In this document: positions 7,250 through 60,636 of the stretch, piece after piece
How positions within the stretch are numbered: the stretch's first letter is position 1
Layout of the letters: the number at the start of each line of letters is the position of its first letter
Assembly (NCBI GenBank): GCA_023245995.1
Contig: JAHFJH010000003.1
Location: 1,585-65,584 of the forward strand
Reading direction: 5' to 3'
From: Candidatus Doudnabacteria bacterium
Lineage (GTDB): Bacteria; Patescibacteriota; Doudnabacteria; UBA920
DNA length: 64,000 bases
The notes under the pieces: model-generated
Database searches by the model: none
What the model saw: the letters and a program-made list of their open reading frames with translations, nothing else
What the model was told of the DNA's origin: nothing
Made by a program: the position numbers and the translations under genes

Positions 7250-7666
7250 TTAGGCTTTCTTGTTCTTAGCGCCGTATTTAGAACGACCACGCTTTCTCCC
7301 GTCGACTCCGAGAGTGTCTAACTTACCTCTAACTATGTGGTAACGTACACCAGCCAAATCTTTTACTCTTCCACCACGAAGTAGTACCACGCTATGTTCT
7401 TGCAAATTGTGCCCAACTCCAGGAATGTAGGCCAAAACTTCCATGCCATTGGTAAGTTTTACCTTGGCCACTTTACGTAAAGCAGAGTTAGGTTTACGAG
7501 GAGTAGTAGTGTACACCTTTAAACAAACGCCACGAATAAAAGGAGCTCCTTTTATTTCTATGGGCTTATTTTTTATTAAATTAATGCGACGGCGGAGTGC
7601 CGGAGACGCAGGTTTTACCCGTAAGGGTTTGCGGCCTTTTCTGACCAGCTGATTTATTGTTGGCAT
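7250..7666 (-). CDS. rpsL: 30S ribosomal protein S12
   Basis: [24 protein letters not shown]...[17 protein letters not shown]. Canonical S12. Confidence 0.97.
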
Positions 7667-7760
7667 TCTTAATTAGTGGCTAGTGATTAGTGGCTAGTGA
7701 TTAGTAATTAAATTCATGAAAAGTGCAGTATTGGCCAGACTAATCACTGTCCACTGTCCA
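7667..7760. repeat. short tandem direct repeats upstream of rpsL
   Basis: ttagtggctagtga occurs twice in tandem at 7673-7700. It is followed by three cactgtc units (cactgtccactgtccactgttcactc). Both blocks begin with taatcact. Confidence 0.4.
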
Positions 7761-7781
7761 CTGTTCACTCAAAATAAAAAC

Positions 7782-7812
7782 CCAAGCAAAGGGTTTTTTG
7801 CTTTTCTTCACT
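7782..7812. terminator. A-run/hairpin/T-run element (possible bidirectional terminator)
   Basis: aaaaaccc-aagcaaa-gggttttttg; the stem is extended by A/T pairing on both strands. Confidence 0.3.
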
Positions 7813-7817
7813 ACCAG

Positions 7818-7853
7818 TACCCGCCTCTTCGGCGGGTCGCCGATGAGGCGACT
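7818..7853. ncRNA. conserved double-hairpin motif, copy 1 (unknown function)
   Basis: tacCCGCCtcttcGGCGGG followed by GTCGCCgatgaGGCGAC. The same two-hairpin unit recurs at 23863-23897 with compensatory stem changes, and partially at 24301-24322. Confidence 0.3.
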
Positions 7854-8122
7854 CCCTTGAAACCTGTAAGGGTTAAACTTCCTAGTAAATGAGACCAAAT
7901 AATAGTAATTCCTTAAAGTTTCGACTCTAAGGGGCTTCCTATTCACTTGTTAAAGAAATTATACCTAAATAAGCCCAAAACCGTCAATATTGACTTTATA
8001 GTCAATATATGCTACAATATCGCATATTTGCTTGCTTATATAGAACATAGAACTTCGATCCTCAATTAAGGGGAACGAATACCTGTAAACGCCCATAAAA
8101 AGTAAGCCAGTAAGGAGGAAAC

Positions 8123-15747: not shown

Positions 15748-17892
15748 TTAGCTAAAAATTAAGCGGAAAATATTTTTCTTTCTGTGTAAAACGTAACCGG
15801 CAGTCAATAGTCCTGCAAAAGCTATACCACTAAGGGCGTCGGTCATGCCACCAGTTTTTGGTGGAGTGTAAGATGGTGGAGGGTTAATAACTATGGTTAT
15901 AGTATTGCCAAAGGTGTTTACCATTTGGTAACTAATATTTGTAGACAAATAGTACTTTACGCGTACACGAAATGTCTTAGTTACTGTTCCATTTGCTGCA
16001 ATAGTTACTGCTGGGTAAGTAATTGTCTGCCCAGTAAGTGTTCCACCGCCAAGGTCTGTAACATCGGCCAACGGAAGCACGCCTGACAAATTATCGGAGA
16101 TAATATAATTTGGCGCTTCAGCATTACCGGTATTATTTACAGTCAACTTATAGGTAATAAAGTCCTCACGGCTGGCTGGAGTAGTTATGGCGTTTACATT
16201 CTTAGTGTCGTTCCATGCGCTCTTAGAAAGAGTAATGCTTGGGGCTCCGGAAATAGTACCGGTTACACATGAAGTATCGGAGACGCCAGTAGCGTTAGAA
16301 GCAGCAGTAGTTGCAGTGTTACACACATTTGTGTTAACGCTGACAGCGCTTGCAGCAGTGTACAAATACCCAACAACAATTTCTTGATTGGCAGCTAAAG
16401 TACCTGTAAAGTTTACTGCGCCATTATATAACTGGCCAGTGAAAGAACGAGTAGCGGTAAAGCTTCTAAAATCGGTAACTAAGTTTGATGGGTTTATAAG
16501 ATCGTTTAAGGTAACCCCAGTTGCATCTATGTTACCGGTATTACGAATGCGAACTTGGTATTCCAAAACGTCACCAGCTTTCACATTGCTTAAGTTTTCA
16601 GCAAATGGACCATTTTGTGTGACGTTGCGTACTAACTTTATTATAGACAAGCTAGTGTAGTTTTGAGTTACGTTTACGTTACAATTAACGGAATCATTGC
16701 CAGAATTTACTGTTACAGTTTTGTTACCAGCGGTAGCGTAACTTACTTGAGCACTAGCGTTGTTAACAGATGCTGTGGCTGTACCAGGTGTAGACCAAGA
16801 GTAAGTTCCAGTACCACCAGTTGCAGTAATAGTTACCACTTGGGCAATATTTGCAGCTTGGTTTGCAGGTGTACACACTAGCTTAGCTGGTGTTGGGGTT
16901 GGAGTAGGAGTTGGTGTAGGAGTTGGGGTTGGACAGTTTGAAGAAACATTAGTTTTAACTGTATTGCTAAAGACTAAAGTTTTAAAATTATTTAACTCAA
17001 GAGCTGAAATATTTGCAACGTTAACAATGTCTTTATTGGTACAATTAGCCAAGCTCTTTACTTTTACACGAATATTTACTTGTCCAGTTTGTCCTGGTGT
17101 GACTGTATTTGCGTTCCAGTACATGGTTCTTGTTGCAGAATCATACACTGCTTTATCTATATAACCAGCAGTAACATTGGCTGAATGGGTTTCGCTAACG
17201 TAGTCAACAAGTTCATCTAAATGGTCAACCAAACGAACACCACTACCTGTACAGCTGGCAGTTCCAGTATTTTTAAAATTTACAGTGTAGGTTAGTTCAT
17301 CACCTGGTTTTGCATTAGTTTTATCTACAGCCTTGGTTAGTTCCAACTGACACACGCCTACTGGTGTAGGAGTTGGTGTAGGGGTTGGAGTAGGAGTAGG
17401 TGTTACACAAACAACTTTTGTGGACATCATAGCCCAAGTCTGTGCATACGGATTTTGGGAAGAAACCTCAGCCTTAATAGGCATATCTGCTCCGCAGGTA
17501 GGATTACTTACTACTCGGAAAGTAAATTGCGTATTGACTGTTTTACCTGGGTCAATAGTGGCAATAGTACAAACCGAGGTAAGGTTTGACTGATCAAAAG
17601 TACAGGTGCTTCCCGTAGCTTTTACGAAGTTAAGGAAACCTGGGTTGTAGAGGTTGCTAATAGCAACACCGTTTAATACCACTGCACCAGGGTTTGTAAC
17701 AGCAACATTGTACACAACTTCTTGGTTCGGGCTCATTGTAGCCGGACCTGTCATTTGTGCAACAATAATTGAAGCTGTGTCTGCTTTAACAGGTGTATTT
17801 ACTGCAAAGGCAGAACCCAATATAAGACCAAAAGCGGCAACAAGCATTAAGCTTTTTGGACTTATTAAATTCTTCAGAGTTTGTAACATCAT
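15748..17892 (-). CDS. secreted cell-surface protein with DUF11-like repeats, two (TP)n linkers and a C-terminal sortase-type sorting signal
   Basis: N-terminal signal peptide. Repeated ...YxVxVxNxGxxxxxxVxLxDxL motifs (DUF11-like). TPTPTPTPTPTP appears twice. The C-terminus PPKTGGMTDALSGIAFAGLLTAGYVLHRKKN is an LPxTG-like motif followed by a hydrophobic segment and a basic tail. Confidence 0.7.
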   Translation of the reverse strand: MMLQTLKNLISPKSLMLVAAFGLILGSAFAVNTPVKADTASIIVAQMTGPATMSPNQEVVYNVAVTNPGAVVLNGVAISNLYNPGFLNFVKATGSTCTFDQSNLTSVCTIATIDPGKTVNTQFTFRVVSNPTCGADMPIKAEVSSQNPYAQTWAMMSTKVVCVTPTPTPTPTPTPTPVGVCQLELTKAVDKTNAKPGDELTYTVNFKNTGTASCTGSGVRLVDHLDELVDYVSETHSANVTAGYIDKAVYDSATRTMYWNANTVTPGQTGQVNIRVKVKSLANCTNKDIVNVANISALELNNFKTLVFSNTVKTNVSSNCPTPTPTPTPTPTPTPAKLVCTPANQAANIAQVVTITATGGTGTYSWSTPGTATASVNNASAQVSYATAGNKTVTVNSGNDSVNCNVNVTQNYTSLSIIKLVRNVTQNGPFAENLSNVKAGDVLEYQVRIRNTGNIDATGVTLNDLINPSNLVTDFRSFTATRSFTGQLYNGAVNFTGTLAANQEIVVGYLYTAASAVSVNTNVCNTATTAASNATGVSDTSCVTGTISGAPSITLSKSAWNDTKNVNAITTPASREDFITYKLTVNNTGNAEAPNYIISDNLSGVLPLADVTDLGGGTLTGQTITYPAVTIAANGTVTKTFRVRVKYYLSTNISYQMVNTFGNTITIVINPPPSYTPPKTGGMTDALSGIAFAGLLTAGYVLHRKKNIFRLIFS

Positions 17893-23781: not shown

Positions 23782-23862
23782 TGGTCAGGATACTGGGAAT
23801 TGAACCCAGTCTACACCCACCCCACGTGTCCGCCATAGCTTTAGCGAAGGCGGATGGGCGCG
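23782..23862 (-). other. tRNA-like 3' half (T-arm, acceptor 3' strand, ACCA) with no foldable 5' half
   Basis: Minus strand reads ...GACUGGGUUCAAUUCCCAGUAUCCUGACCA, a perfect T-stem/loop plus 7-nt acceptor strand plus discriminator and CCA. The expected CAGGAUA 5' strand is absent upstream. The conserved double-hairpin motif lies where the 5' half should be. Confidence 0.3.
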
Positions 23863-23897
23863 TACCCGCCTCCTCGGCGGGCTGCCGATGAGGCAGC
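23863..23897. ncRNA. conserved double-hairpin motif, copy 2
   Basis: tacCCGCCtcctcGGCGGG followed by GCTGCCgatgaGGCAGC. Relative to copy 1 the second stem changes TC/GA to CT/AG, which is compensatory. Confidence 0.3.
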
Positions 23898-23922
23898 TAC
23901 CACTACTTTAATAAATAAGCTC

Positions 23923-23996
23923 TGGTCGGGGTACCAGGAATCGAACCGGGACTACAAGACCCCCAGCCTTGCGTACTACCACTATACTATACCCCG
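23923..23996 (-). tRNA. tRNA-Pro (anticodon GGG)
   Basis: Hand fold: CGGGGTA/TACCCCG acceptor stem, D-loop AGTGGTAG, anticodon stem CAAGG/TCTTG with loop CTGGGGG (GGG, G37), T-loop TTCGATT, ACCA encoded. There is one C·U mismatch in the T-stem. Confidence 0.75.
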
Positions 23997-24004
23997 TCCC
24001 AAGC

Positions 24005-24279
24005 TCACCTACTAGTTCTATTTTTAAAATAACTTTCTAGTTTCTGCCTTAGCACTTCTCTCCCATATCCTGTTTTGAAAAACTTCTCTGCTTTTAAAGC
24101 ATCACGCTTTTCTATATACGCTTCATAAAATACCAGTTTAAACGGTCCATTCTTGGCTGTATATTTACCACCACGTTACCATTATGTTCTTTAAACCTTC
24201 TCCTTAGATCATCAGTACTGCCATAATATAGTTTATGATTACCAATAGATTCCAAAATGTAGGCATACCACATATACAT
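24005..24279 (-). pseudogene. frameshifted GIY-YIG (YhbQ/UPF0213-like) small nuclease gene
   Basis: Frame A gives MYMWYAYILESIGNHKLYYGSTDDLRRRFKEHNGN, then a stop. The +2 frame continues with GGKYTAKNGPFKLVFYEAYIEKRDALKAEKFFKTGYGREVLRQKLESYFKNRTSR*. The two frames together make a complete GIY-YIG domain broken by about a 1-nt indel near 24175 (AAA/AA run). Confidence 0.6.
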
Positions 24280-24300
24280 TCAACACTGCACCGTCTTTTT

Positions 24301-24322
24301 GGTGAACCGCCGATGAGGTGAC
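24301..24322. ncRNA. partial third copy of the conserved hairpin motif
   Basis: gaaCCGCCgatgaGGTGac shares the CGCCGATGAGG core with copies 1 and 2. Confidence 0.2.
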
Positions 24323-24346
24323 TAATTACTCTTTGCTTGCTAACAA

Positions 24347-25372
24347 CTACACCGTAAAGTAGGGCATGTCGTTTGAGCTGTCCGTTGAAGTATTAAGTGC
24401 TTCTTTGTGCTCAGCCATCTTTTCTATTATATCCTGCAGTTCTTCGTCGCTGAAAAATTCTATTGTTATTTTTCCACCCTTACCCTGACGTTGAACCTTT
24501 ACTTGTGTGCCCAAACGAGTCCTAAGCTCTGACTCTATGGCCATGAGTTTTGGATCTGGAGCTGCAGCGTCCATTTGTCGTTTTAGTGAAAGCTCACGAG
24601 CTTTAGCTTCTACCTGACGCACATTTAAATTTTGGTCAATAATTGCTTTAAATAAAGCTAACTGTTTTTCCGGTTCACTTACCCCAAGTATTGCGCGTGC
24701 ATGCCCTTCGGTAATTCTACCGTCAATAACTGCCCGCTGAACTTCCACTGGCAAATTTAATAAACGAAGGGTATTGGTCACAGCTGGCCGGCTTTTGCCA
24801 ACCTTCTGCGCCACTTGATCTTGAGTTAAATTAAAAGTTTTAATTAAACGGTCGTAAGCCCGCGCTTCTTCTATAGCGTTAAGTTCCCTGCGTTGAATAT
24901 TTTCAATTAATGCTACCTCTAGTTTAGTTTGGTCTTCTAAACTTTGTTTTACAATTGCAGGAACGCGCAAAAGCCCAGCCAAAATAGAAGCACGAAACCT
25001 GCGCTCCCCTACTACTAACTCATAACCCGCAGATGTTTTAGTAACTACAATTGGTTGAATAACTCCATACTCTTTTATGGAGGCAGCAAGCTCTTTTAGA
25101 CCCTCTGGGTCAAAAATTTTTCTTGGTTGAAAAGGATTTGGAACAATCTTTGTAACTTCTATTTCTTCTATTTGCGCATCTTGATAGGAAACTCGTTCAT
25201 TTACAGTATCTGGTATATTTAAAGGTTCGAACACTTCAGTCGGAGCGGCAACAGTAGCAACCTGTGGCACTGGTGCCATGTAACCTAAAATAGATGAAAA
25301 CACATCATCGTCCAATACTGGTTCAGTGTATAAATTGTTGTTTGTAGTTTGTGTTGTTATACCGTCTAACAT
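24347..25372 (-). CDS. parB: ParB/Spo0J-family partition protein (start moved to an internal ATG)
   Basis: GERRFRASILAG box, HTH region LTQDQVAQKVGKSRPAVTNTLRLL, ParB N-terminal domain. The track ORF's N-terminus overlaps tRNA-Leu, so the start is taken at MLDGITT (ATG 25372). Confidence 0.85.
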   Translation of the reverse strand: MLDGITTQTTNNNLYTEPVLDDDVFSSILGYMAPVPQVATVAAPTEVFEPLNIPDTVNERVSYQDAQIEEIEVTKIVPNPFQPRKIFDPEGLKELAASIKEYGVIQPIVVTKTSAGYELVVGERRFRASILAGLLRVPAIVKQSLEDQTKLEVALIENIQRRELNAIEEARAYDRLIKTFNLTQDQVAQKVGKSRPAVTNTLRLLNLPVEVQRAVIDGRITEGHARAILGVSEPEKQLALFKAIIDQNLNVRQVEAKARELSLKRQMDAAAPDPKLMAIESELRTRLGTQVKVQRQGKGGKITIEFFSDEELQDIIEKMAEHKEALNTSTDSSNDMPYFTV

Positions 25373-25417
25373 ATTTGAAAACTGCTGGATACTACTCCAG
25401 CAAATAAAAGATAATTT

Positions 25418-25502
25418 TGGTGCCGGTGGTGGGAGTCGAACCCACACATCTTTCGATACACGATTTTGAGTCGTGCGCGTCTGCCAGTTCCGCCACACCG
25501 GC
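25418..25502 (-). tRNA. tRNA-Leu (anticodon CAA), class II with a long variable arm
   Basis: GCCGGTG/CACCGGC acceptor stem, D-arm TGGCGGAACTGGCAGACGC (close to E. coli tRNA-Leu), anticodon loop CTCAAAA, T-arm GTGGGTTCGACTCCCAC, CCA encoded. Confidence 0.85.
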
Positions 25503-60117: not shown

Positions 60118-60636
60118 CTACTTTTGAGTTTTAATCTTTTCTATTTCGTCTATTAACTTCCCAAGGGTAATCTCAATTTTATCAAGTGATTCTCTGGTCT
60201 GACGGTCTTTAAGTTCTTCTGCGGTTTCGCCTTCAGTAATGTCTTCTACGTCTTCTTGAATTTCGTCAACGTCTTTTTGGACTTCGTCTATGTCTTTCTG
60301 CACTTCATCAATATCTGCCTGAATTTCGTCAACGTCTTTTTGGACTTCTTCCACGTCTTCGGCAATTTCCGCAACGTCTTCCTCTACTTCTTCCAAGCTT
60401 TGCGTATTCCTATTCACCGTCATTTGAATAAATATGGCTAGGTAAATAGCTTCCAATGAAACCACTGTTGTTAATACCAGCAACATTTTTTCAAACGGTA
60501 CACCAAACAATACCAAAACAAAACACAAAATAAATAGTATGCTATGAACAACTAAAGACGAAATAGACCCAACCCACGCAGTAAAACTAACTGCTAACTT
60601 TTCCAGCTTAGATTCATATACTTTTTGCTTTGTCAT
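60118..60636 (-). CDS. DUF1003-family membrane protein with a C-terminal acidic heptad-repeat tail
   Basis: Two-TM DUF1003 core (...FTAWVGSISSLVVHSILFILCFVLVLFG...LVLTTVVSLEAIYLAIFIQMTVNRNTQ). This is followed by roughly seven 21-nt (7-aa) tandem repeats E[VI]Q[KAE]D[VI]D. Start taken at MTKQK. Confidence 0.6.
   Translation of the reverse strand: MTKQKVYESKLEKLAVSFTAWVGSISSLVVHSILFILCFVLVLFGVPFEKMLLVLTTVVSLEAIYLAIFIQMTVNRNTQSLEEVEEDVAEIAEDVEEVQKDVDEIQADIDEVQKDIDEVQKDVDEIQEDVEDITEGETAEELKDRQTRESLDKIEITLGKLIDEIEKIKTQK
60228..60400. repeat. 21-nt tandem repeats (about 7-8 copies) encoding the acidic heptads of the DUF1003 protein
   Basis: ttcgtcaacgtctttttggac / ttcgtctatgtctttctgcac / ttcatcaatatctgcctgaat ... 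repeated head-to-tail. Confidence 0.6.

What the first reader, a model, noticed from the sequence alone, without database searches (positions are those of the whole stretch)
23782..23862. tRNA-like 3' half without a partner 5' half, adjacent to tRNA-Pro
A perfect T-arm, acceptor 3' strand, discriminator and encoded CCA (GACUGGGUUCAAUUCCCAGUAUCCUGACCA, minus strand) are present. I could not pair a 5' acceptor strand (CAGGAUA) or a D-arm. The 5' region is occupied by the conserved double-hairpin motif. Possibilities: a tRNA-3'-end remnant left by an integrative element (an att site), a non-canonical tRNA (intron or permuted), or a tRNA-like structure of a larger RNA. It does not match the 3' ends of the other tRNAs in the window.
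Basis: seen in the sequence. Interest (0 to 1): 0.5.

Follow-up and report, generated by a model that had tools for sequence, protein, structure and literature searches.

The report
Broken tRNA-Pro gene beside its replacement
The tRNA-like 3' half is the surviving back part of an old proline tRNA gene, split by short hairpin insertions, missing its front end, and most likely a dead relic because a complete tRNA with the same anticodon lies just upstream.

Summary
On the minus strand, 23782-23809 holds a perfect T-arm, the 3' acceptor strand UAUCCUG, A73 and CCA. ARAGORN and Rfam find no complete tRNA or tmRNA there.

Window 23782-23861 matches positions 26-76 of a tRNA-Pro(GGG), here called type A. 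That tRNA is intact at the same post-parB position in related Doudnabacteria-like CPR genomes (L004, L014, L015, L022). Only a 30-nt hairpin (23824-23853) in the anticodon loop interrupts the match.

The acceptor 5' strand and D-arm are missing. In their place are the 40-nt double hairpin (23862-23901) and a complete second tRNA-Pro(GGG) (23923-23996), which has its own complementary leader and trailer.

Two relatives carry the same composite. L003 keeps both halves, with the second tRNA nested inside the first ("tRNA within a tRNA"). L022 has a visibly decayed copy. In all three cases close sister genomes lack the composite, so this locus changes alleles quickly.

Best reading: a non-functional relic of tRNA gene replacement. 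It is not an integrase att duplicate, a tmRNA or a group I intron. One caveat is that the stems and tRNA-like parts are better conserved than the hairpin loop, so a functional interrupted or split tRNA in relatives is not excluded.

The parts
23782..23813 (-). 3' end of the relic tRNA-Pro (type A). It comprises variable loop UAGA (23810-23813), T-arm CUGGG-UUCAAUU-CCCAG (23793-23809), 3' acceptor strand UAUCCUG (23786-23792), discriminator A73 (23785) and encoded CCA (23782-23784). G72 with A73 is the bacterial tRNA-Pro acceptor signature (own knowledge).
   Evidence: It differs at one base (C71 to U) from the intact tRNA-Pro(GGG) of L004, L014, L015 and L022.
23814..23823 (-). Anticodon GGG with G37 and U38 (23819-23823), and the 3' strand of the anticodon stem, GGGUG (23814-23818).
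   Evidence: Alignments. ARAGORN reads anticodon GGG once the insertion is removed and a 5' part is supplied.
23824..23853 (-). 30-nt insertion in the anticodon loop, between U33 and G34 (the site is ambiguous by one U). It is a hairpin CCGCC-N14-GGCGG followed by ACACGU.
   Evidence: It is absent from intact orthologues and sits at the same site in L003 and L022. The stem equals that of the second hairpin of the double-hairpin motif: CCGCC-N(3-20)-GGCGG occurs only 3 times in the window against 0.36 expected. ARAGORN's relaxed intron mode reports i(32,30) when a 5' part is supplied.
23854..23861 (-). G26, the 5' strand of the anticodon stem CGCCC (23856-23860), and A32 U33 (23854-23855). This is where tRNA homology starts. 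The preceding UAC (23862-23864) could be either D-stem 3' strand or part of the hairpin element.
   Evidence: The relic starts at the same junction, UAC(G) plus position 27, in L003 and L022.
23862..23901 (-). 40-nt double hairpin GGUAG-CUGCC-UCAUC-GGCAG-C-CCGCC-GAGGA-GGCGG-GUAC. It is a repeated palindromic element that resembles REP/BIME elements in form, and it occupies the place of the missing D-arm and 5' acceptor strand.
   Evidence: Repeat family D3. Compensatory stem changes separate it from copy 7817-7856. The same motif, read as ...GSRLIGDPPRRRV..., lies just upstream of GIY-YIG genes in other CPR organisms (P0126, P0132). A degenerate copy follows the tRNA-Pro trailer in L004.
23902..23922 (-). 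Trailer of the intact tRNA-Pro (GAGCUUAUUUAUUAAAGUAGU). It is complementary to that tRNA's leader.
   Evidence: The leader/trailer duplex is -17.9 kcal/mol here, and -16 to -30 kcal/mol with covarying sequence in 7 other cases (6 loci; L003 has an inner and an outer pair).
23923..23996 (-). Complete canonical tRNA-Pro(GGG), called type B' or tRNA#2 here. It is the working gene that makes the relic redundant.
   Evidence: ARAGORN; Rfam RF00005 at 55.3 bits.
23997..24018 (-). Leader of tRNA#2 (GAACUAGUAGGUGAGCUUGGGA). It is homologous to the leader of L004's tRNA-Pro and pairs with the trailer.
24008..24279 (-). Frameshifted GIY-YIG nuclease pseudogene between parB and tRNA#2. It contains CAGGATAT (24065-24072), the only candidate 5' acceptor strand, which is probably a coding coincidence.
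   Evidence: Pfam PF01541 scores E 2e-17 after the frameshift is repaired. The motif FFK[TS]GYGRE is invariant in 31 homologues. Duplex test.
24287..24326 (-). Weak third copy of the double-hairpin motif (63% identity), directly upstream of the GIY-YIG start codon.
7817..7856 (-). Second good copy of the double-hairpin motif, in the 5' leader of rpsL. It is not next to any tRNA sequence.

Best explanation
Window 23782-23861 (minus strand) is the 3' two-thirds (positions 26-76) of a former tRNA-Pro(GGG) gene, here called type A. Type A is the gene found intact just downstream of parB in related Doudnabacteria-like CPR bacteria.

In this genome the old gene has been broken in three ways:
- A 30-nt hairpin sits in its anticodon loop.
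- A 40-nt palindromic double hairpin abuts its 5' edge.
- Its acceptor 5' strand and D-arm are gone.

A second, complete tRNA-Pro(GGG), with its own complementary leader and trailer, lies immediately upstream and does the decoding.

The relic therefore most likely has no tRNA function. It is probably transcribed as a structured 3' extension of the tRNA-Pro transcript and is left to decay. It records a gene-replacement event at a locus where tRNA-Pro alleles are exchanged often.

Shown: the homology, the exact insertion boundaries, the absence of a 5' half in the window, the presence or absence of the composite in relatives, and the decayed copy in L022.

Inferred: that the relic is non-functional; that replacement occurred by recombination or insertion of a leader-tRNA-trailer cassette, possibly helped by the adjacent and now frameshifted GIY-YIG nuclease gene; and that the relic looks pristine because it is young or is refreshed by gene conversion.
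For: (1) Orthology.
- L004 5216-5289, L014 2214-2287, L015 924-997 and L022 1139-1212 are intact tRNA-Pro(GGG) genes after parB. Their positions 26-76 equal the window sequence apart from 2 transitions and the 30-nt insert.
- A BLAST match of 45 nt has 95.6% identity, E 4e-15.
- In the genome and metagenome collections, the 22-nt T-arm/acceptor sequence always lies in intact tRNAs: Pro in the CPR and Patescibacteria-type hits, Ile or Phe in tRNA arrays. The exception is the L003 contig.

(2) In-silico repair. Deleting exactly 23824-23853 and supplying positions 1-25 gives a canonical tRNA-Pro(GGG). Without that, no ARAGORN mode finds a tRNA.

(3) No 5' half.
- The 22-mer of the type-A 5' half is absent from the 64-kb window even with 3 mismatches allowed.
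- The minimum-free-energy fold leaves AUCCUGACCA unpaired.

(4) Redundancy. A complete tRNA with the same anticodon lies 21 nt plus the 40-nt hairpin element upstream.

(5) Relatives.
- L003 has the 5' piece (positions 1-26), then a 19-bp inverted repeat enclosing a whole tRNA-Pro(GGG), then the 3' piece with the same anticodon-loop hairpin and an extra variable-loop hairpin.
- L003's sister genome L015 (99% ParB amino-acid identity) has the uninterrupted gene between the same flanks.
- L022 has an intact tRNA followed by a decayed copy of the same 3' piece. The T-stem 5' strand is lost and there are several C-to-U changes.

(6) Turnover. The three genomes that carry the composite lie in three different ParB clades, each with a close sister that lacks it. 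L014 (type A) and L016 (type B) differ in tRNA allele at 95% ParB identity.

(7) Other tRNAs. The other three tRNA genes in the window are intact and uninterrupted, so hairpin-bearing tRNAs are not a general feature of this genome.
Against: The relic is too well preserved for an old pseudogene.
- Window versus L003 differ at 3 of 49 tRNA-like positions and at 0 of 10 hairpin-stem positions, but at 5 of 14 hairpin-loop positions. Loop versus the rest gives Fisher p = 0.007.
- The flanking spacer is unalignable, and parB is only about 72% identical at the DNA level.
- The functional nested tRNA differs more, at 10 of 74 positions.
- All substitutions in the stems keep base pairing (G-U or compensated).

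This pattern suggests either structural constraint or very recent spread. I cannot tell these apart.

The rest of the genome (the contig is 138 kb; the window is 64 kb) could not be searched for a 5' half acting in trans.

CAGGAUAU, an exact complement of the 3' acceptor strand including the A2-U71 pair, does occur 68 nt upstream of tRNA#2.
Confidence: 0.6

Rival explanations
1. The element belongs to a functional interrupted or split tRNA-Pro or tRNA-like RNA. In the complete form (L003), RNase P and 3' processing would release the nested tRNA. The outer 5' and 3' pieces would stay joined by the 19-20-bp leader/trailer helix and the acceptor stem. The short hairpins would then be excised by an unknown protein machinery or tolerated. 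In the window, the 5' strand would be supplied by CAGGAUAU at 24065-24072 or in trans.
For: - The L003 composite folds into a perfectly nested cloverleaf within a cloverleaf: dG -113.9 kcal/mol, z = -7.2, with the outer acceptor stem formed.
- Its exon-like parts differ by 1 nt of 76 from the intact gene of L015, although synonymous divergence between the two genomes is substantial.
- Stems and tRNA-like parts are conserved while the hairpin loop varies.
- Stem changes preserve pairing.
- CAGGAUAUGGGAG can pair with UUCCCAGUAUCCUG at -18 kcal/mol, p about 0.005 against shuffles.
- The decayed copy (L022) occurs where an intact type-A gene is present. The pristine copies occur where the neighbouring tRNA is of another type.
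Against: - The 30-nt insert is far too short for a group I or II ribozyme, and Rfam finds no intron family.
- In the predicted fold the splice junctions lie in a continuous helix, with no bulge-helix-bulge motif.
- No bacterial protein-dependent tRNA splicing is known (own knowledge).
- The window lacks a D-arm and a 5' half.
- CAGGATAT is dictated by the invariant protein motif TGYG of the GIY-YIG family, so it is expected in roughly 1 in 10 such genes.
- No genome was found in which the interrupted gene is the sole tRNA-Pro(GGG).
Confidence: 0.17
2. The element is a classical att-site remnant. An integrase-bearing island would have inserted into a tRNA-Pro gene and duplicated its 3' end, leaving this copy at one island boundary.
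For: It is a partial 3' tRNA copy that ends in CCA and lies next to an intact tRNA with the same anticodon. The locus is clearly prone to insertions, with a GIY-YIG gene and palindromic elements nearby.
Against: - The intact neighbour's 3' half is a different sequence: T-arm CCCGG-UUCGAUU-CCUGG and acceptor UACCCCG.
- No second copy exists in the window.
- No tRNA in any GTDB representative genome has the exact 26-mer.
- Only 61 nt separate the intact tRNA from the remnant. There is no integrase and no island.
- The remnant carries an internal 30-nt insertion, which att duplication does not explain.
Confidence: 0.05
3. The hairpins are site-specific mobile insertions. Small palindromic elements, moved in trans by a transposase or nuclease, would have independently targeted the tRNA-Pro(GGG) anticodon loop and GUAG sites in several lineages, each time inactivating a previously functional gene.
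For: - The same insert sits at the same site in three ParB clades whose sister genomes lack it.
- The double hairpin and L003's variable-loop hairpin both follow a GUAG and share GCC-GARGA-GGC cores.
- The CCGCC/GGCGG stem is shared by the anticodon-loop insert and the repeated motif.
- The motif is linked to GIY-YIG genes in other CPR genomes.
Against: - All three relics also share the same upstream junction (UAC(G) plus position 27) and the same order: intact tRNA, trailer, 3' piece. One ancestral composite that spreads by recombination fits this better.
- Only 2-3 copies of the motif occur in 64 kb.
- No transposase was identified.
- The anticodon-loop hairpin was found nowhere else.
Confidence: 0.13

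Closest known systems
tRNA gene fragments or pseudogenes left by DNA insertion into tRNA genes (for example att remnants of integrative elements)
   Same: A partial 3' tRNA copy ending in CCA lies beside an intact tRNA of the same specificity, at a locus with signs of mobile DNA.
   Different: There is no identical repeated core, no integrase and no island. The inserted DNA is essentially a second tRNA gene with inverted-repeat flanks. The fragment itself also carries a hairpin insertion.
Archaeal disrupted tRNA genes: multiple-intron and split tRNAs, and the Caldiarchaeum tRNA-Thr model of disruption by a mobile element (PMC3293823)
   Same: Population or lineage heterogeneity at one tRNA locus. 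Insertions at non-canonical positions. A tRNA fragment is left next to another copy. In L003 the two halves are brought together by a long complementary helix, as in split tRNAs.
   Different: The organism is a bacterium. No bulge-helix-bulge motif is present at the junctions, and no splicing endonuclease is known in bacteria (own knowledge). The window copy has no 5' half.
Group I introns in Patescibacteria tRNA genes (PMC13011429)
   Same: Same phylum. An insertion in the anticodon loop hides a tRNA gene from standard finders. Comparison with insertion-free homologues reveals the boundaries.
   Different: [quoted passage not shown] Here the insert is a 30-nt simple hairpin at about 33/34 in tRNA-Pro, with no ribozyme core and no Rfam intron hit.
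REP/BIME repetitive extragenic palindromes (own knowledge of the family)
   Same: The double hairpin is a pair of short GC-rich imperfect palindromes in opposite orientation. Each is headed by GTAG or GTAC on its own strand. It is repeated in intergenic regions with compensatory stem changes.
   Different: Only 2-3 copies occur in 64 kb. Its orientation relative to transcription is constant. It is associated with GIY-YIG gene starts in other CPR genomes. No RAYT-type transposase was identified.
Free-standing GIY-YIG homing endonucleases in tRNA gene clusters (phage T4 SegB; own knowledge)
   Same: A small GIY-YIG gene sits next to a tRNA gene at a locus where alleles are replaced between close relatives.
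   Different: The gene here is frameshifted and encodes only the catalytic domain. No cleavage site or homing activity is shown.
tRNA-like domain of tmRNA
   Same: T-arm, acceptor 3' strand and CCA without a D-stem, next to a long helix.
   Different: The acceptor is Pro-like (G72, A73) and lacks the G3-U70 alanine identity pair. There is no tag reading frame or pseudoknots, and only 141 nt are available. ARAGORN tmRNA mode and the Rfam tmRNA models are negative.

Membership tests
Canonical bacterial tRNA (Rfam RF00005) | 7-bp acceptor stem formed by 5' and 3' strands | tested here: not met
   No 5' strand is adjacent. The fold leaves the 3' strand unpaired. ARAGORN and Rfam are negative. The type-A 5' half is absent from the window.
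Canonical bacterial tRNA (Rfam RF00005) | D-arm | tested here: not met
   At most UAC remains (23862-23864), and it is shared with the hairpin element.
Canonical bacterial tRNA (Rfam RF00005) | 5-bp anticodon stem with a 7-nt loop | tested here: not met
   The stem CGCCC/GGGUG is present, but the loop is split by 30 nt. It is canonical only after in-silico deletion.
Canonical bacterial tRNA (Rfam RF00005) | T-arm with a GTTCRANYC-type loop, discriminator base and CCA | tested here: met
   CUGGG-UUCAAUU-CCCAG, A73 and CCA are present.
tmRNA (standard or permuted) | Alanine-type acceptor (G1-C72, G3-U70), tag reading frame and pseudoknots | tested here: not met
   The acceptor 3' strand is UAUCCUG. 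ARAGORN tmRNA mode finds nothing. Rfam gives only a 12-bit partial hit on the T-arm. A protein gene starts 70 nt downstream.
att-site tRNA 3' duplicate of an integrative element | An identical 3' segment in an intact tRNA of the same genome, with an integrase-bearing island between the copies | tested here: not met
   No second copy in the 64-kb window. The neighbouring tRNA differs. There is no integrase or island. The remainder of the genome could not be tested.
Group I intron-containing tRNA | An intron with the conserved P3-P9 ribozyme core, which needs far more than 30 nt (own knowledge) | tested here: not met
   The insert is 30 nt and a simple hairpin. Rfam gives no Intron_gpI hit. For the known Patescibacteria cases see PMC13011429.
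Archaeal-type (BHB) intron-containing or split tRNA | Bulge-helix-bulge motif at the exon-intron junctions | tested here: not met
   In the predicted fold the junctions lie in a continuous helix with a single 1-nt bulge.
Archaeal-type (BHB) intron-containing or split tRNA | Separately encoded or separated 5' and 3' halves joined by complementary flanking sequence | tested here: inconclusive
   This is met in relative L003, where a 19-20-bp helix and the outer acceptor stem form. It is not met in the window, where no 5' half was found. Trans supply from the unseen part of the genome cannot be tested.
REP/BIME palindromic repeats (for the double hairpin) | Short imperfect palindromes headed by GTAG-like tetranucleotides, repeated in intergenic DNA, often as inverted pairs | tested here: met
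   GTAG-CTGCC..GGCAG on the minus strand and GTAC-CCGCC..GGCGG on the plus strand. There are 2 good copies and 1 weak copy, with compensatory changes.
REP/BIME palindromic repeats (for the double hairpin) | High copy number and a cognate RAYT/TnpA-type transposase | not tested
   Only 64 kb is visible, with 2-3 copies. The window's proteins were not screened for Y1 transposases.

The most novel reading that the evidence does not exclude
In some Doudnabacteria-like CPR bacteria, a tRNA-Pro(GGG) gene interrupted at up to three non-canonical positions is a functional gene kept by selection. The interruptions are a whole second tRNA, flanked by a 19-bp inverted repeat, at position 26/27; a 30-nt hairpin in the anticodon loop; and a hairpin in the variable loop. 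This would imply either two-piece tRNA assembly after the inner tRNA is excised or a protein-dependent, non-ribozyme tRNA splicing or editing pathway in Bacteria. The window copy would be a truncated derivative of that gene.
Probability: 0.12. Interest if true: 0.85.

Novelty: new variant of a known kind. Interest (0 to 1): 0.4.

Why it matters
As a relic it is ordinary biology, but the relic is informative in three ways.

First, it shows that a CPR tRNA-Pro locus turns over quickly between close relatives, and it catches the replacement mid-way.

Second, it explains an annotation puzzle and a likely cause of assembly breaks after parB. Several relatives' contigs end there.

Third, it ties a repeated double-hairpin motif to GIY-YIG gene starts and to tRNA flanks.

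If the complete composite seen in L003 were functional, it would be the first bacterial tRNA with short non-ribozyme insertions and a tRNA nested inside another tRNA. That would make the question of protein-mediated tRNA splicing or split-tRNA assembly in Bacteria directly testable.

Tried and rejected
- tmRNA, standard or permuted. The acceptor is Pro-like, only 141 nt are available, a protein gene follows directly, and ARAGORN and Rfam are negative.
- Permuted tRNA. There is no 5' half downstream. The sequence there is AT-rich and then an ORF begins.
- Group I intron. The insert is only 30 nt and there is no Rfam hit.
- att duplicate. No identical copy exists in the window. The exact window 26-mer gives 0 hits in GTDB representative genomes.
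- My first reading of GUAGUGGUAG...GUAC as a D-arm split by the double hairpin. I rejected it because GG(N)AG...GGGUAC is shared with the copy at 7817-7856 and so belongs to the repeat element. L003 and L022 also show the same junction at position 26/27.
- GGGUA or CGGGUA within the hairpin element as a local 5' acceptor strand. It overlaps the hairpin's own stem and is part of the repeat, so I did not rely on it.
- CAGGATAT at 24065-24072 as the lost 5' acceptor strand. It is statistically notable (p about 0.005), but the invariant TGYG motif of the GIY-YIG family explains it.
- A search for the anticodon-loop insert in JGI metagenomes gave 0 hits.
- The T-arm 22-mer in JGI metagenomes gave 26 hits, all inside intact tRNAs.
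- Viral contigs gave only chance matches.
- An nhmmer profile of the three relics against all fetched loci found no further copies.
- The downstream protein has no homologues, so it gives no synteny.
- Several parB look-ups returned contigs that end just after parB and so carry no information.
Full report
**1. What is in the sequence**

Read on the minus strand, the region after parB (24347-25372) has this order:
- a weak copy of a double-hairpin motif (24287-24326);
- a frameshifted GIY-YIG gene (24008-24279);
- a 22-nt leader;
- a canonical tRNA-Pro(GGG) at 23923-23996 (ARAGORN; Rfam 55 bits);
- a 21-nt trailer;
- the 40-nt double hairpin (23862-23901);
- G-CGCCC-AU;
- a 30-nt hairpin, CCGCC-N14-GGCGG-ACACGU (23824-23853);
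- GGGGU-GGGUG-UAGA;
- a perfect T-arm, the strand UAUCCUG, A and CCA (ending at 23782).

The next gene starts 70 nt further on.

No tool calls a tRNA or tmRNA there. The region is identical in two other assemblies of the same organism.

**2. What it is homologous to**

ParB homologues identify the organism as a Doudnabacteria-like member of the CPR/Patescibacteria. Synteny upstream (SHMT, BacA, PAP2, tRNA-Leu(CAA), ParB) is conserved in relatives.

In L004 the gene after parB is an intact tRNA-Pro(GGG): CGGGAUAUCGUAUACCGGUAGUACGCGCCCAUGGGGUGGGCGUAGACUGGGUUCAAUUCCCAGUAUCCCGACCA. I call this type A.

From G26 to CCA the window sequence equals type A except for two C-to-U transitions, both of which leave G-U pairs, and the 30-nt block inserted after A32-U33. 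BLAST gives 95.6% identity over 45 nt, E 4e-15.

In-silico repair gives the same result. Deleting exactly 23824-23853 and supplying positions 1-25 gives a canonical tRNA-Pro(GGG) in ARAGORN. With the 30 nt kept, only the relaxed intron mode finds it, as i(32,30). The native sequence gives nothing.

In GTDB representative genomes, the 22-nt T-arm/acceptor sequence occurs in 9 loci, 8 of them intact tRNA-Pro (GGG or CGG). In JGI metagenomes it occurs in 26 loci, all intact tRNAs. G72 with A73 is the bacterial proline acceptor signature (own knowledge).

So the finding is the back part of a proline tRNA gene. It is not a domain of some larger RNA.

**3. What is missing**

The type-A 5' half (acceptor strand and D-arm) is not in the window, even with three mismatches allowed. 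The minimum-free-energy fold leaves the 3' acceptor strand single-stranded.

I first read GUAGUGGUAG...GUAC as a D-arm split by the double hairpin. However, GG(N)AG...GGGUAC is shared with the second copy of the motif at 7817-7856, which lies in the rpsL leader far from any tRNA. It therefore belongs to the repeat. Secure tRNA homology begins at G26/C27.

The only sequence that could pair with UAUCCUG is CAGGAUAU at 24065-24072. Its extension also pairs with the T-stem 3' strand (-18 kcal/mol, p about 0.005). But it lies in the GIY-YIG reading frame, on the codons for TGYG within the motif FFK[TS]GYGRE. That motif is invariant in 31 homologues. The match is therefore largely forced by coding, and I treat it as coincidence.

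**4. The same composite in relatives**

L003 (GCA_964612745.1) carries the full arrangement, in this order:
- type-A positions 1-26;
- UCCCACAUUAACUUUUGGUUA;
- a complete second tRNA-Pro(GGG);
- AAAGUUAAUGUGGGAUAC;
- type-A positions 27-76, with the same anticodon-loop hairpin and an additional hairpin (CUAGCC-GAAGA-GGCUAG) after GUAG in the variable loop.

The 240-nt stretch folds as a tRNA nested inside a tRNA. The outer acceptor stem forms, and a helix of about 20 bp encloses the inner tRNA (dG -113.9 kcal/mol, z = -7.2).

L015 has the uninterrupted type-A gene between the same flanks. Its ParB is 99% identical in protein, and its flanking DNA is 87-91% identical. This is a clean filled-site versus empty-site comparison.

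L022 has an intact type-A tRNA followed by a decayed copy of the 3' piece. The hairpin 5' arm and anticodon stem carry C-to-U changes, the T-stem 5' strand is replaced by another small hairpin, and the end reads UAUUCCGACCA. A profile of the three copies finds no others in any locus I fetched.

All three relics begin at the same junction and follow an intact tRNA and its trailer. They therefore descend from one ancestral composite.

**5. A fast-changing locus**

On a ParB tree the three genomes that carry the composite fall in three different clades. Each has a close sister with a single plain tRNA-Pro(GGG):
- L003 versus L015, 99% ParB identity;
- L022 versus L019, 95%;
- the window versus L018, L006 and L054, 87-89%.

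L014 and L016 (95% ParB identity) carry different tRNA alleles, type A and type B. The tRNA alleles themselves are mosaics: the window's tRNA#2 shares its D-arm and anticodon arm with type B, and its acceptor and T-arm with L003's inner tRNA.

The tRNA at this locus usually has a complementary leader and trailer (-16 to -30 kcal/mol in 8 of 13 cases, with covarying sequence). In L003 this forms the 19-bp inverted repeat around the inner tRNA, which is flanked by UAC on both sides.

Several relatives' contigs end just after parB. This is consistent with a variable or repeated locus that breaks assemblies.

**6. The hairpin elements**

The double hairpin consists of two GC-rich palindromes in opposite orientation. 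Each is headed by GTAG or GTAC on its own strand, and compensatory stem changes separate the copies. In form it resembles REP/BIME elements (own knowledge).

The stem CCGCC/GGCGG occurs three times in the window against 0.36 expected: twice in the motif and once in the anticodon-loop insert. L003's variable-loop hairpin shares the GCC-GARGA-GGC core.

Two GIY-YIG homologues from other CPR organisms have ORF calls that run through an in-frame translation of the motif (…GSRLIGDPPRRRV…) about 27 nt before their start codon. The window's weak third copy likewise sits just upstream of its GIY-YIG pseudogene. The motif is therefore linked to this nuclease gene family as well as to tRNA-Pro flanks; L004 has a degenerate copy after its trailer.

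**7. Interpretation**

The most economical reading is a relic. An old type-A tRNA-Pro(GGG) was disrupted and functionally replaced by another tRNA-Pro(GGG) cassette. The window retains only positions 26-76 of the old gene, interrupted by a palindromic insert. The evidence for this:
- no 5' strand and no D-arm;
- a split anticodon loop;
- a redundant intact neighbour;
- a decayed sibling in L022;
- sporadic distribution among relatives;
- three other normal tRNAs in the window.

How the replacement happened is inference. Possibilities are insertion or recombination of a leader-tRNA-trailer unit, possibly stimulated by the neighbouring GIY-YIG nuclease, as free-standing GIY-YIG endonucleases do in phage T4 tRNA clusters (own knowledge).

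The closest published analogue is the archaeal model in which a mobile element disrupts a tRNA-Thr gene and scatters a fragment (PMC3293823). [quoted passage not shown]

**8. What does not fit**

The relic is unexpectedly well preserved. Between the window and L003:
- tRNA-like positions differ at 3 of 49;
- hairpin stems differ at 0 of 10;
- the hairpin loop differs at 5 of 14 (loop versus the rest, p = 0.007);
- the functional inner tRNA differs at 10 of 74;
- the spacer is unalignable.

All stem substitutions keep pairing.

Three explanations are possible: recent spread of the composite at a locus with proven turnover; gene conversion from type-A tRNA-Pro(CGG) or tRNA-Pro(UGG) paralogues, which share this T-arm and acceptor in other Patescibacteria; or real structural constraint. 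I cannot separate these with three sequences.

I therefore keep a minority hypothesis: the complete composite, as in L003, is a functional interrupted or split tRNA, and the window copy is a truncated derivative. Against it:
- the insert has no ribozyme and no bulge-helix-bulge motif;
- no genome was found in which the interrupted gene is the only tRNA-Pro(GGG).

**9. Verdict**

The finding is a new variant of a known kind, a tRNA gene relic. It is of moderate interest because of the nested tRNA-in-tRNA arrangement in a relative and the unexplained conservation.

Noticed in passing
window 7773-7990 (minus strand), upstream of rpsL (7250-7666): The second copy of the double hairpin (7817-7856) lies in a roughly 280-nt rpsL leader. 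A near-consensus promoter (TTGACG-18-TATAAT, 7958-7987) precedes it, and a terminator-like hairpin with a U-run (7776-7798) follows it. This could be an attenuator or leader structure. Tandem short repeats (GTGGACAG x2; CACTAGCCACTAAT x2) lie at about 7690-7765.
   Followed up: partly
proteins P0126 and P0132; window 24287-24326 and 7740-7946: In other CPR organisms, ORF calls upstream of GIY-YIG genes of this family read ...YTGSRLIGD[PS]PRRRV.... This is the in-frame translation of the double-hairpin motif, about 27 nt before the GIY-YIG start codon. The motif is therefore conserved across genomes and linked to this nuclease gene family.
   Followed up: partly
window 24008-24279 (minus strand): A GIY-YIG nuclease gene is disrupted by a frameshift near 24170. 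Pfam PF01541 scores E 2e-17 once the frame is repaired. The frameshift is identical in three assemblies, so it is a real pseudogene and not a sequencing error.
   Followed up: yes
window 23997-24018 with 23902-23925; L003, L004, L014, L015, L019, L022: The leader and trailer of the post-parB tRNA-Pro(GGG) are complementary, which extends the acceptor stem through the CCA by 9-19 bp. The sequence covaries among genomes. The complementarity is absent in L006, L016, L018, L053 and L054. It may be a processing helix or the inverted repeat of a mobile tRNA cassette.
   Followed up: partly
L019 2048-2464, L020 2078-2464, L021 1859-2464, L026 1851-2465: LAGLIDADG-type ORFs lie between tRNA-Leu(CAA) and parB in one clade of relatives. 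The window and other clades lack them. This is another sign of homing-endonuclease traffic around these tRNA genes.
   Followed up: no
L005, L020, L021, L023-L026: Contigs of several relatives end within 35-120 nt after the parB stop codon, or inside the tRNA-Pro gene. This is consistent with assembly breaks caused by strain variation or repeats at this locus.
   Followed up: no
window 60221-60409 and 16885-17403: A 21-nt periodic repeat occurs in about 7 or more units (TTCGTCAACGTCTTTTTGGAC-like). A 12-nt periodic GGTGTTGG/GGAGTAGG-type repeat occurs in two blocks 450 nt apart. Both are probably repetitive protein-coding segments.
   Followed up: no
window 24347-25498 versus tRNA-Leu 25418-25502: The longest mechanical ORF for parB (GTG at 25498) runs into the tRNA-Leu(CAA) gene. 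The 341-aa form that starts at 25372 matches the database protein exactly (P0002).
   Followed up: yes
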